Shown in pieces: positions 7,796-41,334 of a DNA stretch of 64,000 nucleotides (its first letter is position 1; every line of letters begins with the position of its first letter). The position numbers and the translations under genes are program-made. Under the pieces are notes generated by a model that was not told the origin of the DNA, searched no databases, and saw only the letters and a list, made by a program, of their open reading frames with translations. This stretch comes from Candidatus Poribacteria bacterium (GTDB taxonomy: Bacteria > Poribacteria > WGA-4E > WGA-3G). The DNA lies in the NCBI GenBank assembly GCA_965198235.1, contig OZ240248.1, positions 4,640,001-4,704,000 of the forward strand, in the 5' to 3' direction.

Positions 7796-7886
7796 CTCTG
7801 TTTAGGGTCCGAATCCTTTGTCAATGTTCTCTAAAACGAATGTGATGGGCGGTTCATCAAAGTTTACGGATTGGAAACCCCGTGTT

Positions 7887-8912
7887 TTAGTGCGGGGAGG
7901 AAAATCCGCTCCTGTAGTTAAAGTTAAGGCGTGTTAGCACCTTAAAATCCGTAGTTTTTGCTTTTTGAGTGAGGCGTTTACCTTCCAAGGAATATAACGC
8001 TATACCGTGTTTACCGAAGCCACTGATACGTGTAAGACCATATTTGATATGTCTAACCAAAGTATTTTTTACCAATCCATTCCATGTTGTTCCTCCATAA
8101 CGCGGGCGTTTCCCGCCTTTCTGTGGGTTCTGTCTGTGGAGTTCACGTCTCCGTATCGGGATTGGCGATATACAGAAGATTGAAGTATTGTCGACAATAG
8201 GTTTCCCGCCGATTGTCTGATATGCCAAACACCAACTATCGACACAATGTGCGTCAAAATGTTCTGATAGTTTGTTAGACGACTTCTTGAGTCCTAATCC
8301 GTCTCGTATCTCTTTTGTTTCCCACCCTTGAAGTGTCCGTAGTTGCCAACGCTTCTGAACTTCAGAGTAGAACCACTGCTTACCGACTTCCAGAGGACTA
8401 AAGGATTGATTCCACTTTTTCGCATGTTCTATAGTCCGTGCTTTAATATCTTCAACACATACATGCGTGATTGGATACAGTTTGGATAACCAGTCTAATA
8501 TACGCAACTTCCAATCCCATCTTGCGCGTGTGCCTGCGGGGATACGCTCTCTGTTCGTAAGACGATTCGTCCTATTTTTTCGGTTCGGACACTTCCGTGA
8601 ACGCCGTCCTCTACGCAACTCACGTCTCTTTTCAACTTTCTTACTGACTTTGCTATGGGCATCCGCTTGCACATTCAGATAAGTGTGTGATTCACTCTTA
8701 ACCGTAAAGCCTTCTTTCTTACTGCCAGGGTCTATGCCTACAGCAATCTCTTGCTTGTAATAGCGTTCTGCCACTTCTTTGTTAAGCCTGATACAGAAAA
8801 TACCATTATCCCAATAAGGCGTGGCTTCTCCGCTTTTAATCAAATGCCTCGCTACAGGTGGAATCGTAGGCATTAACTGTTCGCCTTCTTTACTCTTTAC
8901 TGATACAAACAT
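7887..8912 (-). CDS. isrB: IsrB OMEGA RNA-guided nickase (RRXRR/PLMP, split RuvC, no HNH), 341 aa
   Basis: QLMPT, RuvC-I GIDPGSK, Arg-rich bridge helix RRELRRGRRSR, RuvC-II CVED, RuvC-III HCVD. No room for an HNH domain. ATG at 8912 follows GGGAG. Confidence 0.88.
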   Translation of the reverse strand: MFVSVKSKEGEQLMPTIPPVARHLIKSGEATPYWDNGIFCIRLNKEVAERYYKQEIAVGIDPGSKKEGFTVKSESHTYLNVQADAHSKVSKKVEKRRELRRGRRSRKCPNRKNRTNRLTNRERIPAGTRARWDWKLRILDWLSKLYPITHVCVEDIKARTIEHAKKWNQSFSPLEVGKQWFYSEVQKRWQLRTLQGWETKEIRDGLGLKKSSNKLSEHFDAHCVDSWCLAYQTIGGKPIVDNTSIFCISPIPIRRRELHRQNPQKGGKRPRYGGTTWNGLVKNTLVRHIKYGLTRISGFGKHGIALYSLEGKRLTQKAKTTDFKVLTRLNFNYRSGFSSPH

Positions 8913-38073: not shown

Positions 38074-38979
38074 ATGATCACCAGCAAAGGATGCATGCAG
38101 TCCACAACGGAACAGCAAAATCTGACTTCTGTTGACATCGATCTGAAGTCAACATCAGAAATCGTCCGGATTTTTCACGAAGAAGATCGGAAAGCGATTA
38201 AGGCAGTAGAAGCAGAATCCGAAGCGATTGCACACGCTATTGAATTATGCGTTGCTGCATTTCGCGCCGGTGGCAGACTGTTTTATGTCGGCGCGGGTAC
38301 GAGTGGTAGACTTGGGGTGTTGGATGCCTCCGAATGTCCACCGACTTTTAGTACGTCCCCAGAGATGGTCCAAGGGATAATTGCTGGTGGGGACGTTGCC
38401 TTACGTCGCTCGGTGGAAGGTGAAGAGGATAAGCTTGAAAGTGGTGCGCTCGCTGTCCGGGAGCGACAACTCACATCACAAGATGTGCTCGTCGGCATCG
38501 CAAGCAGTGGACGGACGCCTTATGTTATAGGGGCTTTGAGGGAGGCGCGTGCTATTGGTGCGACAACAATATTTCTCTGCTGCGTTCCACCTCCTGAGCA
38601 ATTAAAAGGATGGGTGACGCATTTCATCACACCCATTGTCGGACCGGAGATTATCACCGGCTCAACCCGATTGAAAGCGGGAACAGCCACAAAGTTGGTT
38701 CTGAACATGTTGACGACTGCTTCTATGATCAAACTGGGTAAGGTCTACAATAATCTGATGGTAGACGTACACGCCTCTAACACGAAACTGGTCGCGCGGA
38801 GCATCCGAATTGTCCAAGCCGTCACTGGGGTTGATGCTGTGGTGGCTGAGGAAGCGTTAGCACGGGCAGGCGGTCGTGCTAAACTCGCTATTGTAATGCT
38901 CGCGAAAGGACTGAATCCGACGGACGCGAATACACTATTAGATGAACATGAGGGATTTCTAAGGCAAATTCTTCAGTAA
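38074..38979 (+). CDS. murQ: N-acetylmuramic acid 6-phosphate etherase
   Basis: GAGTSGRLGVLDASECPPTF, GSTRLKAGTATK and NLMVD motifs. Confidence 0.95.
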   Translation: MITSKGCMQSTTEQQNLTSVDIDLKSTSEIVRIFHEEDRKAIKAVEAESEAIAHAIELCVAAFRAGGRLFYVGAGTSGRLGVLDASECPPTFSTSPEMVQGIIAGGDVALRRSVEGEEDKLESGALAVRERQLTSQDVLVGIASSGRTPYVIGALREARAIGATTIFLCCVPPPEQLKGWVTHFITPIVGPEIITGSTRLKAGTATKLVLNMLTTASMIKLGKVYNNLMVDVHASNTKLVARSIRIVQAVTGVDAVVAEEALARAGGRAKLAIVMLAKGLNPTDANTLLDEHEGFLRQILQ

Positions 38980-39180
38980 CTCCACGCTAAAGCGTGGAGA
39001 TTGTAGAATATCCCGAGCCAACGGGGGACCCTGCAACGCGAGATGCTGAATACACGCACATATCGCGGACCTTGTGGTGGCACACAACAAGACGGTACTA
39101 GGTGCTCCCCAAGCCTGTATCCTCTCTGGTTCCGTGATGTGGATGGGGCAACATACAACCCGAAAGGGGATTTACTAACT
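38972..39180 (+). ncRNA. omegaRNA (HEARO-like) of IsrB element 2
   Basis: TTCAGTA pairs with TGCTGAA; CTCCACGC-TAAA-GCGTGGAG end hairpin; conserved blocks shared with 8913-9122. Confidence 0.85.
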
Positions 39181-40245
39181 ATGTTAGTTCCAGTAAAAAC
39201 GAAAGACAGTGAAAAGTTAATGCCAACCACTCCTGAAAGGGCGGCTATGATGATTAAGTGTGGCGATGCTACGCCTTACTGGAGTAATGGTATATTTTGT
39301 ATAAGACTCAATGTAGAACCCTCTGGAAGATACAAACAGGATATAGCAGTAGGCGTAGATCCTGGCAGTAAGAAGGAAGGTTTTACAGTTAAGAGTGAGT
39401 CTCATACTTACCTGAATGTGCAAGTAGATGCCCACAACAAAATCGGTAAGAAAATCAAGAATAGGCGGGAACTACGCAGAGGTAGAAGGGCGCGTAAGTG
39501 TCCTAATAGAAAGAACCGCATGAACCGCTTAGCCAACAAGCATCGTATACCAGCAGGCACACGCGCAAGATGGGATTGGAAACTACGCATATTAGATTGG
39601 TTGGCTAAGATATATCCAGTCACGCATGTATGTGTAGAAAATATCAAGGCACACACTAAGCAGTATCAAAAGCGTTGGAATCAATCGTTTAGCCCGCTAG
39701 AAGTCGGTAAAGAGTGGTTCTATAGCGAAATCTGCAAAAAGTGGAAATTGTTCACGCTGCAAGGGCACGAGACCAAAGAACTGCGCGATAGATTAGGTCT
39801 CAAAAAGTCATCTAACAAAGTCGCAGAGACGTTTGACGCACATTGTGTAGATAGTTGGGTGTTGGCATATCATACTATTGGCGGTGATCCTATAGTAGAC
39901 AACACCGATATATTTTGTATTTTACCATTCCAAGTAAAGCGTCGTACGTTGCATAGACAACTGCCACAGAAAGGTGGTAAGAGACCAAGATTTGGTGGAA
40001 CAAGATGCCTTGGACTGAGTAAAAACACATTGGTTAAACATCTTAAACACGGATTAGCAGTGATATGCGGACACCAACAAGGTGGATTTTCCTTGCAACC
40101 TATTCAAGGTGGAAAACGTGTTGCATTAACAGCAAAACGCACTGATTTTAAGGTATTAAAGAAACTGAATTTCCGATACAAAACTGTAAGTCAAGTAATA
40201 TCTATACAACAGAAAGATATTGCGTTACAGCTAACATTATTTTAG
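39181..40245 (+). CDS. isrB: IsrB OMEGA nickase, 354 aa
   Basis: KLMPT, GVDPGSK, RRELRRGRRAR, CVEN, HCVD; no HNH. Clear paralogue of 7887-8912. The longer ORF from 39043 reads through the omegaRNA. Confidence 0.88.
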   Translation: MLVPVKTKDSEKLMPTTPERAAMMIKCGDATPYWSNGIFCIRLNVEPSGRYKQDIAVGVDPGSKKEGFTVKSESHTYLNVQVDAHNKIGKKIKNRRELRRGRRARKCPNRKNRMNRLANKHRIPAGTRARWDWKLRILDWLAKIYPVTHVCVENIKAHTKQYQKRWNQSFSPLEVGKEWFYSEICKKWKLFTLQGHETKELRDRLGLKKSSNKVAETFDAHCVDSWVLAYHTIGGDPIVDNTDIFCILPFQVKRRTLHRQLPQKGGKRPRFGGTRCLGLSKNTLVKHLKHGLAVICGHQQGGFSLQPIQGGKRVALTAKRTDFKVLKKLNFRYKTVSQVISIQQKDIALQLTLF

Positions 40246-40383
40246 AGGAAAAACTAAAGAACGTGTTGATTTTCTTTAACAATTGGGTTTCCGTCCCGAT
40301 TTTTCCGTTGTCAAAATTGGGTTTTCGATTTGGTGAAGAACATCGGGGGATTAGGGCACTAACAATAAGGTCAGGAGGAACCG

Positions 40384-41334
40384 ATGGGTACAAAAGTTGG
40401 GCTTGCCAAGACCGGCAGGCGACGTTCTAACGTTTTTGAAGCGTTGGACAACATACGCGAGGATCTCACACCGAAAGTCCGTGAGCAGGTACTGTTAAAA
40501 CCGAATTTTCTCTCCAGTACGAATCAACTCGCTTCGTCGCACGTCGATGCGATGCGAGGCGCGCTTGATTTTCTGCTGAGTACACCACATCCGCCGAAAG
40601 AGGTGATTATTGCCGAAGGCGCAAATGAAGCGTTCTCCGGTGAGGCATTCCAAGTTTTTGGTTATGAGGCACTTCAAGCCGAGTACGATCTCCCGATCCG
40701 GCTCGTGGATTTGCATCAGGAAACCGAATGGGTGAAAACCACGGTCTTTCTTGCTGAGCGCAATGAAGATACCGTGCGGATGCCGAAGATAGTATTGGAT
40801 TGCCCCTGCACTATTTCTGTTGCTATCGCTAAAACACATGATGCCGGGGTCGTAACACTCGCAATGAAGAATATGATTATGGGTACTCTGCACAAGGAAG
40901 ACCGGATTAAAATGCACGGCTATCACAGTCACGCAGACCGGGTACTCCCGCGCGAAGCGCAGACGCTCAATATCAACTTGCTTCGTCTCTCACGCCACCT
41001 TAAGCCCGACATCGCTATTGTTGATGGCACCGTTGGGTTACAAGGCAACGGACCTGGTGGCACCGACTCTGTTCCACTCGGGATCGCGATTGCGAGCGGA
41101 GATGTGTTCGCAGCTGATGCAGTCACGACAAAAGCGATGGGATTTGAGCCATTAGAGATTGGGCTTTTTCATTACGCCAATGCGTTAGGATACGGCACCG
41201 CAGATCTTGACAAGATTGGCATCGTCGGGCCCGCCGTAGAGACAATCGTGACATCGTTTAAGCCCCATGAAACCGCTGAACTCCAGTTCCAGTGGCAAGA
41301 AGCGAGTCCGGCAGAATATCTGGCAGCAGACTAA
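40384..41334 (+). CDS. DUF362 protein
   Basis: VLLKPN, KTH...VTLAMKN and IVDG...QGNGP motifs. Confidence 0.85.
   Translation: MGTKVGLAKTGRRRSNVFEALDNIREDLTPKVREQVLLKPNFLSSTNQLASSHVDAMRGALDFLLSTPHPPKEVIIAEGANEAFSGEAFQVFGYEALQAEYDLPIRLVDLHQETEWVKTTVFLAERNEDTVRMPKIVLDCPCTISVAIAKTHDAGVVTLAMKNMIMGTLHKEDRIKMHGYHSHADRVLPREAQTLNINLLRLSRHLKPDIAIVDGTVGLQGNGPGGTDSVPLGIAIASGDVFAADAVTTKAMGFEPLEIGLFHYANALGYGTADLDKIGIVGPAVETIVTSFKPHETAELQFQWQEASPAEYLAAD

What the first reader, a model, noticed from the sequence alone, without database searches (positions are those of the whole stretch)
40170..40340. IsrB 2 has a C-terminal QLTLF clamp-type motif and no intact second IS end
Seen: paralogue 1 ends NFNYRSGFSSPH inside its end hairpin, whereas paralogue 2 extends NFRYKTVSQVISIQQKDIALQLTLF. 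Downstream there are only half-sites (AATTGGGTTT twice) and no hairpin. Known: QLxLF is the beta sliding-clamp binding consensus. Inference: a replisome-coupled RNA-guided nickase, possibly immobilised or domesticated.
Basis: partly seen in the sequence, partly recalled or inferred. Interest (0 to 1): 0.7.

Follow-up and report, generated by a model that had tools for sequence, protein, structure and literature searches.

The report
IsrB nickase with clamp-binding-type tail
A transposon-borne RNA-guided DNA nickase (IsrB) in a sponge-symbiont genome ends in a short conserved peptide that looks like the tag proteins use to bind the replication sliding clamp, which suggests, without proving it, that this nuclease works at replication forks.

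Summary
The 354-aa IsrB (window 39181-40245) ends ...IALQLTLF*, and no GC-rich hairpin follows.

The "AATTGGGTTT half-sites" are not IS sequence. They are host intergenic DNA, also present at empty sites in sister genomes. The true right end is the 24 nt after the stop codon, and its subterminal hairpin has been deleted (34 nt).

The tail belongs to a Candidatus Poribacteria IsrB lineage:
- Of 49 tail-type protein clusters, 28 end in QLx[L/M/F](F/L/W or x-F/L/I); 12 fit the published clamp-binding definition.
- Q350 is invariant in 24 of 24 aligned sequences.
- The Leu after it uses five codons.
- pN/pS is 0.32-0.44 for the motif, 0.25 for the core and 0.79 for the linker.

An unrelated IscB in the same genome ends QQLEFPLFT, and 28 of its 63 homologues carry a similar end motif. 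The fold with the host DnaN gave only weak support (0.54; best control 0.00).

"Domesticated" is not supported. 62 of 64 sister genomes have the site empty, and tail-bearing copies elsewhere keep intact ends. "Immobilised" is supported by inference.

Verdict: a probable clamp-binding motif on an OMEGA nuclease, a new variant of a known theme. Binding is untested.

The parts
38972..38975 (+). TTCA in the host flank next to the left end. T(T)CA precedes the left end in all aligned copies. It is the likely target-site or TAM-like motif.
   Evidence: 5' alignment of 15 copies; junction comparison for L001 and L002.
38976..39180 (+). Left end plus the structured 5' region (omega-RNA-like scaffold) of the IsrB element. 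Its first bases (cag TAA, 38974-38979) supply the last codon and the stop of the upstream SIS-domain gene.
   Evidence: Conserved among copies. RNAalifold on 12 copies gave 30 pairs, 20 with compensatory changes. No Rfam match.
38980..38999 (+). Left-end subterminal hairpin CTCCACGC-TAAA-GCGTGGAG.
   Evidence: the repeat finder. The same hairpin type occurs at the left and right ends of relatives, with compensatory changes.
39181..40245 (+). isrB gene (IsrB-2), 354 aa, RuvC-only, intact.
   Evidence: Pfam RRXRR 1e-29 and no HNH. PDB 8DMB IsrB E=4e-36 over residues 3-280. D60, E153, H221 and D224 are invariant in alignment A1.
40180..40227 (+). Linker of the C-terminal tail (K334-L349).
   Evidence: Variable in length and sequence among homologues. 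pN/pS 0.79.
40228..40242 (+). QLTLF, a clamp-binding-type motif at the extreme C-terminus.
   Evidence: Q350 invariant in 24 of 24 and L351 in at least 90%. Codon table. Consensus from PMC11139829.
40246..40269 (+). Right-end remnant AGGAAAAACTAAAGAACGTGTTGA. The terminal part is kept and the hairpin is deleted. The last 4 nt (TTGA) could instead be flank.
   Evidence: Alignment to the intact right ends of L026 and L020; empty sites.
40270..40383 (+). Host intergenic DNA upstream of the DUF362 gene. It holds both AATTGGGTTT copies (40281-90, 40315-24) and is not part of the element.
   Evidence: Homologous sequence at empty sites in L215-L223. DUF362 by Pfam.
7887..8912 (-). Paralogue 1 (short-type IsrB, 341 aa). 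Its ORF runs into the right-end hairpin and stops in the loop.

Best explanation
Window 38976-40269 is a 1.3-kb IS200/IS605-type (ISC1-like) element. It encodes an intact RuvC-only OMEGA nickase, IsrB, and an upstream structured guide-RNA scaffold.

It belongs to a lineage, found so far only in Candidatus Poribacteria, whose IsrB has about 20 extra C-terminal residues. These form a variable linker followed by a conserved terminal peptide, hAhQLT[L/F](F or D-I).

The most likely role of that peptide is a beta-sliding-clamp (DnaN) binding motif. It would tether the IsrB-RNA complex to clamps on newly replicated DNA. That is where IS200/IS605 excision happens, where a sister copy is available, and where a nick can become a recombinogenic break, so restorative homing would be helped.

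This particular copy is a recent insertion specific to this genome, between a SIS-domain gene and a DUF362 gene. It has lost its right-end hairpin by a 34-nt deletion, so it probably cannot be excised by TnpA. It is immobilised, not domesticated.

Shown: gene identity, element limits, empty sites, hairpin deletion, motif conservation and coding-level constraint. Inferred: clamp binding, fork coupling and immobility.
For: Identity:
- Pfam RRXRR only; PDB IsrB 8DMB E=4e-36; covarying 5' structure.
- All 80 best genome-contig loci are Candidatus Poribacteria.

Motif conservation:
- Of 49 tail-type 90%-identity clusters, 12 fit Q-phi-x-[L/M]-[F/L] or Q-phi-x-[L/M]-x-[F/L/I]. 28 fit when F at position 4 or W at the end is allowed. 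Definition from PMC11139829.
- The closest relative, P0001, ends QLTLNF.
- Q350 is invariant in 24 of 24.

Coding-level selection:
- In 18 distinct tail DNAs the Leu after Q uses CTA, CTC, TTA, CTT and CTG, and the Ala at -2 uses all four codons.
- pN/pS is 0.32-0.44 for the motif, 0.25 for the core and 0.79 for the linker.
- RNAalifold finds no consensus structure in the tail DNA.

Rarity:
- 1 of 10,436 frames ends QLxLF.
- The canonical pattern is in the last 9 aa of 9 of 3,675 frames.

Host motifs are alike: DnaE 917 QMSLF and MutS 881 QMALF.

Convergence: the single IscB of this genome (RRXRR+HNH) ends QQLEFPLFT. 28 of its 63 homologues have QLx[F/L]-type motifs in the last 15 aa, after unrelated linkers. 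The genome background is 1.09%.

Fold with host DnaN:
- Weak support: score 0.54, best of 3 controls 0.00.
- The mark was reached by 58 of 80 solved complexes and 2 of 110 mismatches. At 0.60 or under it was reached by only 7 of those 80 solved complexes and by both mismatches that passed.
- Runs agree in at least 80% of contacts; partner pLDDT is at least 38.
- Clamp-peptide complexes are solved, so the pass may reflect likeness to those.

Precedent:
- Beta-binding peptides in transposases of nine IS families, and a putative motif at the C-terminus of IS200/IS605 OrfB in Cyanobacteria (PMC3971601, passages).
- TnpA of IS608 interacts with DnaN (PMC5027513, passages).

This copy:
- Empty site in 62 of 64 genus genomes (my reading of its rows).
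- Hairpin deletion.
Against: - No binding data. The fold verdict is only 'weak', a class the tool calls more often wrong than right without a good prior.
- The commonest family variant is QLTFDI, with F at position 4. The E. coli-based definition has L/M there, so only 12 of 49 clusters are canonical.
- 21 of 49 tail-type clusters lack the motif. 14 are cut short before or within it and 7 are substituted, for example QLTCDI, QRTLDI and PLTFQI. The last of these is the other intact tail copy of this same genome, L002.
- In the main type about 15 residues are conserved (KVxQxxhAhQLT..), more than a bare clamp motif needs.
- The linker has a low synonymous rate (0.40 against 0.78 in the core) and local inverted repeats, so some DNA-level constraint on the tail region is possible.
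- 68 distant IsrB representatives of 300 aa or more have no such end.
- Disorder of the tail could not be judged, because the AF2 model is poor throughout (mean pLDDT 49).
- Pairwise pN/pS uses 9-11 related sequences and is descriptive only.
Confidence: 0.55

Rival explanations
1. The conserved terminal peptide is a real short linear motif, but for another partner or role. Candidates are the element's TnpA, a recombination or repair protein, a protease or adaptor (C-terminal degron), or an autoinhibitory contact with IsrB or its RNA.
For: - The main-type conserved stretch is longer than a clamp motif (KVxQxxhAhQLT[F/L]DI).
- F at position 4 dominates in both the IsrB and the IscB sets, unlike the canonical motifs.
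- The fold support for DnaN is only weak.
Against: - This copy and several others fit the highest-affinity clamp consensus exactly: QLTLF, QLTLNF, QLLLF, QLMLF.
- Divergent tails share only the Q-L-x-h-h core, after unrelated linkers.
- The host DnaE and MutS motifs are of the same kind.
- There is precedent in many IS proteins.
- No other partner was tested.
Confidence: 0.25
2. The tail is conserved because the DNA or RNA that encodes it is part of the transposon's right end, for example an extra structure or a TnpA or regulatory site. The peptide would be a by-product of read-through.
For: - The tail-coding segment sits directly before the right-end hairpin.
- It survives in copies whose ORF is already broken: L003, L109, L130, L211, L213.
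- The linker has a low synonymous rate.
- Single sequences fold somewhat better than shuffles (z from +0.5 to -5.6), with AGATACAA...TTGTATCT-type repeats.
Against: - The motif codons turn over synonymously: 5 Leu codons and 4 Ala codons.
- pN/pS of the motif is 0.32-0.44.
- There is no consensus structure.
- Divergent tails keep the peptide with quite different DNA (L033, L121).
- The same kind of peptide ends IscB proteins with unrelated linkers.
Confidence: 0.1
3. IsrB-2 is a domesticated host nickase: an ex-transposon gene kept at a fixed locus for a replication-linked host function.
For: - The ORF is intact with invariant RuvC motif residues.
- The right-end hairpin is lost in both intact tail copies of this genome, L001 and L002, while the broken copies L003 and L008 keep it.
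Against: - The locus is not conserved. 62 of 64 other genomes of the genus have the two flanking genes 1-505 bp apart, with no IsrB between them.
- L002 is likewise absent at its site in at least 10 genomes.
- The left end and the 5' RNA region are still intact.
- Tail-bearing copies in other genomes sit at different sites with hairpins.
Confidence: 0.04
4. The QLTLF ending is a chance resemblance with no function.
For: The motif is short. The loose pattern occurs in 1.09% of C-termini.
Against: Family-wide conservation, coding-level constraint and recurrence in IscB. Only 1 of 10,436 frames ends QLxLF.
Confidence: 0.03

Closest known systems
IsrB of Desulfovirgula thermocuniculi (PDB 8DMB; OMEGA RuvC-only nickase; organism name and Hirano et al. 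2022 recalled, reference seen in the list of PMC13565253)
   Same: Sequence homologue (E=4e-36, residues 3-280). RRXRR/RuvC without HNH. Structured RNA region encoded 5' of the gene.
   Different: The phmmer match ends at residue 280, so it does not cover the C-terminal 74 residues; the solved construct's own C-terminus was not inspected. No Rfam or HEARO match to the 5' RNA.
Beta-clamp-binding motifs in IS-encoded proteins (Gomez et al. 2014, PMC3971601), including a putative motif at the C-terminus of IS200/IS605 OrfB (TnpB) in Cyanobacteria
   Same: A short Q-L-x-L-F-type peptide, often C-terminal, lineage-restricted and easily gained or lost, on proteins of transposable elements (passages).
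   Different: That work tested transposase peptides with E. coli beta. The OrfB case was only noted as putative, and its table S5 could not be seen. IsrB and IscB are not mentioned. Here the carrier is an RNA-guided nuclease, not the transposase.
TnpA of IS608 interacting with DnaN (Lavatine et al. 2016, PMC5027513)
   Same: The same IS family is linked to the replication fork and to the clamp (passages).
   Different: There the partner is the Y1 transposase, and its candidate motif was dispensable. Here the motif is on the accessory nuclease.
[quoted passage not shown]
   Same: Motif at the extreme C-terminus of a flexible tail. QLxLF and QLxLxF are the strongest forms.
   Different: Those are polymerases. 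The commonest Poribacteria IsrB form has F at position 4 and I at position 6.

Membership tests
IsrB (OMEGA RuvC-only RNA-guided nickase) | N-terminal PLMP/RRXRR region and split RuvC, no HNH insert | tested here: met
   Pfam gives RRXRR only. The IscB of the same genome does show HNH. 8DMB IsrB E=4e-36. D60, E153, H221 and D224 are invariant in A1. Their catalytic role is by analogy and recalled.
IsrB (OMEGA RuvC-only RNA-guided nickase) | Large structured omega-RNA encoded 5' of the gene, overlapping the left end | tested here: inconclusive
   Conserved 5' region of about 205 nt with 20 of 30 predicted pairs covarying, but no Rfam family matched. Transcription was not tested.
IsrB (OMEGA RuvC-only RNA-guided nickase) | Guide- and TAM-dependent nicking of one strand | not testable with these tools
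   Needs biochemistry.
IS200/IS605-type element (ISC1-like) | Subterminal hairpins at both ends | tested here: not met
   The left hairpin is present (38980-38999). The right hairpin is deleted in this copy. Relatives have both, so the lineage qualifies and this copy is defective.
IS200/IS605-type element (ISC1-like) | Insertion next to a short conserved motif, without target duplication, leaving clean empty sites | tested here: met
   T(T)CA precedes the left end in 15 of 15 aligned copies. Empty sites for L001 and L002. The exact right junction is ambiguous by 4 nt.
IS200/IS605-type element (ISC1-like) | Y1 (HUH) transposase TnpA, in cis or in trans | tested here: met
   Six PF01797 matches elsewhere in the genome, none beside this copy. 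Their match to these particular ends was not tested.
Beta-clamp (DnaN) ligands with a clamp-binding motif | Peptide fitting Q-phi-x-[L/M]-[F/L] or Q-phi-x-[L/M]-x-[F/L] | tested here: met
   QLTLF in this copy (definition). Across the lineage 12 of 49 are canonical and 28 of 49 fit the relaxed form.
Beta-clamp (DnaN) ligands with a clamp-binding motif | Motif lies in a disordered tail or exposed loop | tested here: inconclusive
   The tail has pLDDT under 50 and no secondary structure, but so does most of the poor model (mean 49). The variable linker is consistent with disorder.
Beta-clamp (DnaN) ligands with a clamp-binding motif | Binds the hydrophobic pocket of DnaN; binding is lost on mutating Q1/L4 | tested here: inconclusive
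   Fold with host DnaN gave weak support, 0.54 against a best control of 0.00, and no contacts were reported. No experiment.
Domesticated transposon-derived gene | Fixed, syntenic locus conserved across species | tested here: not met
   62 of 64 genus genomes have the site empty. One (G164) has an unrelated 3.1-kb gap, and one (G157) has only one flank among the listed rows.

The most novel reading that the evidence does not exclude
RNA-guided OMEGA nucleases of two families (IsrB and IscB) have repeatedly acquired C-terminal sliding-clamp-binding motifs. Guide-directed nicking or cutting would then be physically coupled to the replisome. The clamp would deliver the nuclease to freshly replicated DNA, where the transposon has just been excised, a sister template exists, and a nick is turned into a recombinogenic break. 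This would be a general, so far undescribed layer of the transposon-homing mechanism, and a natural model for clamp-tethered genome editors.
Probability: 0.35. Interest if true: 0.8.

Novelty: new variant of a known kind. Interest (0 to 1): 0.62.

Why it matters
How OMEGA nucleases, and a mere nickase in particular, manage to restore an excised transposon is still open. A clamp tether would place IsrB at the fork. There, IS200/IS605 elements excise from the lagging-strand template, and a nick can become a one-ended break that is repaired from the sister copy.

It would extend the known link between transposition proteins and the beta clamp from transposases to their RNA-guided partners. It would also give a simple, testable peptide-level handle: mutate Q and L, or delete about 20 residues.

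The same idea, a clamp- or PCNA-binding tag on a compact nickase, bears on editor design.

In the library I could search, no paper connects IsrB or IscB with the clamp. The 2026 OMEGA review does not contain the words clamp or DnaN.

Tried and rejected
- Rfam. No family matched at gathering score on the whole window or at E up to 1 on 38850-40400.
- AlphaFold2 of IsrB-2 with the 24-row alignment. The model is poor (mean pLDDT 49.3, pTM 0.32). It was not used for fold search and says nothing reliable about tail disorder.
- GC skew of the chromosome. There is no clear two-armed pattern, so the orientation of IsrB copies relative to replication could not be assigned.
- Consensus structure in the tail-coding DNA. 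RNAalifold gave none, so the 'tail is a nucleic-acid element' idea was downgraded, though local inverted repeats exist.
- Y-family polymerase as a host reference motif. PF00817 was not found in this 96.3%-complete genome. DnaE and MutS were used instead.
- JGI metagenome scan. It returned mostly 50%-identical IsrBs without the tail. Only L130 was tail-type, and it has a stop inside the tail.
- The reading of AATTGGGTTT as IS half-sites was rejected.
- The reading 'domesticated' was rejected.
- My first count of right-end hairpins by eye was replaced by a script. A CTCC..TAAA..GGAG-type stem of at least 7 of 8 matches is the script's best hit in 11 of 18 distinct tail DNAs. L211 and L213 have one of 7/8 by eye. 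L023 and L029 have only about 6/8. L001, L002 and L033 have none.
- Supplementary table S5 of PMC3971601, which lists the cyanobacterial OrfB motif, could not be seen and may bear on priority.
- The tree was built from hits ranked by likeness to a tail-bearing query. It is therefore biased towards tail-bearing rows. Rows shorter than 300 aa were left out.
- In one search I dropped P0067, P0099 and P0116 (non-homologous long ends) and own_L002 (same protein as P0013) before counting.
Full report
WHAT IS THERE. The + strand ORF ending at 40245 encodes a 354-aa protein from the ATG at 39181. It ends ...NFRYKTVSQVISIQQKDIALQLTLF*.

Pfam finds only the RRXRR family (1e-29) and no HNH. The best solved relative is the IsrB chain of 8DMB (E=4e-36, residues 3-280). 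The residues D60, E153, H221 and D224 of the RuvC-type motifs are invariant in a 24-sequence alignment. It is therefore an intact IsrB, the RuvC-only OMEGA nickase.

The ~205 nt between the left end and the ATG are conserved among copies. RNAalifold predicts 30 pairs there, 20 of them with compensatory changes. This fits an omega-RNA scaffold, although no Rfam family matches.

The genome is a 5.17-Mb assembly of 2 contigs. It holds six full-length IsrB copies plus fragments, six Y1-transposase matches elsewhere and two dnaN paralogues. All 80 best loci from the species-genome collection are Candidatus Poribacteria.

LIMITS OF THE ELEMENT AND THE 'SECOND END'. I searched the 65 genomes of the genus with 2.8 kb spanning the locus.
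- The upstream SIS-domain gene and the downstream DUF362 gene (Pfam) are present in all of them.
- By my reading of the listed rows, 62 of the 64 other genomes have the two flanks only 1-505 bp apart. That is too little to hold IsrB.
- G164 has a 3.1-kb gap. For G157 only one flank is among the listed rows.

Aligning nine empty sites shows that homology to the window stops after ...caaattctt (38973). It resumes at ttgattttctttaacaattggg (40266 or 40270).

The element is 38976-40269. It is preceded by TTCA, and T(T)CA precedes the left end in all 15 copies aligned. The element supplies the last codon and the stop of the SIS-domain gene.

The left hairpin CTCCACGC-TAAA-GCGTGGAG is perfect. After the IsrB stop only 24 nt of the element remain. 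They align with the terminal 27 nt of an intact right end (L026), and the 34 nt that form the hairpin are missing.

The other intact tail-bearing copy of this genome, L002, has an analogous 37-nt deletion. It is also a genome-specific insertion, with flanks abutting in at least 10 relatives. The two broken tail copies, L003 and L008, keep their hairpins.

By the established IS200/IS605 mechanism, TnpA needs both subterminal hairpins (recalled; general background in PMC5027513). This copy should therefore be immobile. It is not a conserved locus, so 'domesticated' fails.

THE TAIL IS A LINEAGE FEATURE, NOT A QUIRK OF THIS COPY. A search with residues 200-354 returned 1,221 proteins, and I inspected the best 120. 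Many extend past the NFRY core end. They have a variable linker and end in ...LALQLTFDI...LALQLTLDI...IALQLTLF...AIQLTFL...PVQLTLW...PLQLLLFSA...PEQLMLFPA or ...FVQLTLF.

Of 49 tail-type clusters:
- 12 fit the published definition Q-phi-x-[L/M]-[F/L] or Q-phi-x-[L/M]-x-[F/L/I] (review PMC11139829, passages).
- 28 fit when F at position 4 or W at the end is allowed.
- 21 fit neither. Of these, 14 are cut short and 7 are substituted.

Q350 is invariant in 24 of 24 and L351 is conserved in at least 90%.

On a tree of the core domain, motif-bearing rows lie on both sides of the midpoint root. At least 10 changes of state are forced, which looks like an old feature lost many times. The sample is biased towards tail-bearing rows.

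In the phylum scan, 81 of 176 genomes match the C-terminal 65 aa. Among the 150 listed rows only 21 matches, in 17 genomes, reach the tail. That is one to three per genome, while tail-less copies reach 25-29 per genome.

Distant IsrBs lack the tail. None of 68 representatives of 300 aa or more has it. Among the metagenome loci, which are mostly about 50% identical, only L130 is tail-type, and its tail is cut by a stop.

Tail-bearing copies in other genomes lie at different sites. Most are followed by a right-end hairpin. The tail therefore belongs to mobile elements.

PROTEIN-LEVEL OR DNA-LEVEL CONSERVATION? In 18 distinct tail DNAs:
- The Leu after Q is written CTA, CTC, TTA, CTT or CTG.
- The Ala at -2 uses all four codons.
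- The hydrophobic position -1 uses eight codons (Leu, Ile, Val, and one Pro).
- Q is CAA or CAG.

Summed pairwise pN/pS is 0.32 (9 sequences) to 0.44 (11 sequences) for the seven motif codons. It is 0.25 for 300 core codons and 0.79 for the linker. These figures are descriptive, because the pairs are not independent.

RNAalifold finds no shared structure in the tail DNA. The motif therefore evolves as a coding peptide under purifying selection.

Some DNA-level constraint on the linker cannot be excluded. Its pS is low, and inverted repeats such as AGATACAA...TTGTATCT occur.

IS IT A CLAMP-BINDING MOTIF?

For:
- QLTLF is the highest-affinity consensus form, and the nearest relative has QLTLNF, the other top form.
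- It sits at the very C-terminus, like the motifs of Pol II and Pol IV.
- It is the only QLxLF end among 10,436 frames of this genome.
- The host's DnaE and MutS carry QMSLF and QMALF where such motifs are expected (the expected places are recalled).
- A fold of the host DnaN with residues 305-354 gave 'weak support'. The score was 0.54 and the best of three controls 0.00. The mark was reached by 58 of 80 solved complexes and 2 of 110 mismatches, but at 0.60 or under by only 7 of those 80 solved complexes and by both mismatches that passed. The runs agree in at least 80% of contacts, and partner pLDDT is at least 38. Because clamp-peptide complexes are solved, this may only reflect likeness.

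An unplanned replicate is the strongest extra argument.
- The one IscB of this genome (621 aa, RRXRR+HNH) ends in a Pro/Thr/Glu/Lys-rich linker and QQLEFPLFT.
- Of its 63 homologues, 28 carry QLx[F/L]-type motifs in the last 15 aa, after unrelated linkers. That is 28 of the 41 that extend 25 aa or more past the core.
- The genome background for that loose pattern is 1.09%.

Against:
- There is no experiment.
- The fold class is weak.
- F at position 4 dominates in both families.
- Two in five tail-type clusters lack the motif, among them L002 of this genome (PLTFQI).
- In the main type a longer stretch is conserved than a clamp motif needs.

HOW IT WOULD WORK (inferred).
- IS200/IS605 elements excise from, and insert into, the lagging-strand template at forks. 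Their TnpA interacts with DnaN (PMC5027513, abstract and passages).
- OMEGA nucleases cut the empty donor site so that recombination restores the element (PMC13565253, passages).
- A clamp tether would concentrate IsrB-RNA on just-replicated DNA, beside the sister copy.
- For a nickase, it would favour conversion of the nick into a break by the fork.
- For the immobile copy studied here the nuclease has no empty site of its own to act on. It may be idle, or act with other copies' RNAs.

KNOWN OR NEW. Clamp-binding peptides on transposition proteins are known. Examples are nine IS families, Tn7, and a putative motif on IS200/IS605 OrfB in Cyanobacteria (PMC3971601, passages). Others, seen in search listings only, are Tn3 family elements (PMC11417375) and a group II intron protein (PMC6698660).

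I found no paper linking IsrB or IscB to the clamp:
- IsrB + sliding clamp.
- IscB + DnaN.
- IscB + clamp terms.
- TnpB + DnaN.
- TnpB + clamp terms.

The 2026 OMEGA review has no occurrence of clamp or DnaN. These searches cover only the held library.

VERDICT. The clamp idea is well motivated and now rests on lineage-wide and convergent evidence, but it is unproven. 'Immobilised' is yes, by inference. 'Domesticated' is no. This is a new variant of a known theme, of moderate to high interest.

Noticed in passing
L011:49-1911 (-) = G000:C1:1472441-1474303, outside the window: The genome's single IscB (621 aa, RRXRR+HNH) ends in a low-complexity linker and QQLEFPLFT. Of its 63 homologues, 28 have QLx[F/L]-type motifs in the last 15 aa.
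   Followed up: partly
L232-L235 (G000, G173, G151, G171): That IscB sits at a syntenic place in four related genomes. Its DNA is 93-95% identical, while the matching flanks are 82-91% identical. It may be a vertically kept or strongly constrained IscB, a better candidate for domestication than IsrB-2.
   Followed up: partly
L001 (window 40246-40269) and L002: Both intact tail-bearing IsrB copies of this genome have lost exactly the right-end hairpin (34- and 37-nt deletions). The two broken tail copies, L003 and L008, keep it.
   Followed up: partly
window 38974-38979: The insertion replaced the end of the upstream SIS-domain (MurQ/GKRP-like) gene. Its last codon and TAA stop now come from the left end of the element. 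Relatives end ...ILD* or ...ILS*.
   Followed up: yes
L018 and L019 (G000:C1:4351275.. and 2319526..): There are two dnaN paralogues, 74% identical (367 and 370 aa). Proteins of both lengths (367 and 370 aa) appear among the Poribacteria-like hits. Which one a clamp ligand would use is open.
   Followed up: no
tail-coding DNA of L021, L023, L028, L032, L055, L210 (homologous to window 40170-40200): An inverted repeat AGATACAA...TTGTATCT lies in the codons for RYKQIVS. The synonymous rate of the linker is low (0.40 against 0.78 in the core). This may be a DNA or RNA element inside the linker.
   Followed up: partly
G164:C1:3267608-3270730: In one sister genome the same two flanking genes are 3.1 kb apart, so something else is inserted at this intergenic site.
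   Followed up: no
window 7878-7897 (-): The right-end hairpin of paralogue 1 has only a 5-bp stem (CCCCG/CGGGG). Its relatives L005 and L006 have 8 bp with compensatory changes, so paralogue 1 may also be impaired.
   Followed up: partly
whole genome G000: No Y-family polymerase (PF00817) was found in this 96.3%-complete genome. A short dnaE-like fragment with two stops lies at C1:552935-553231.
   Followed up: no
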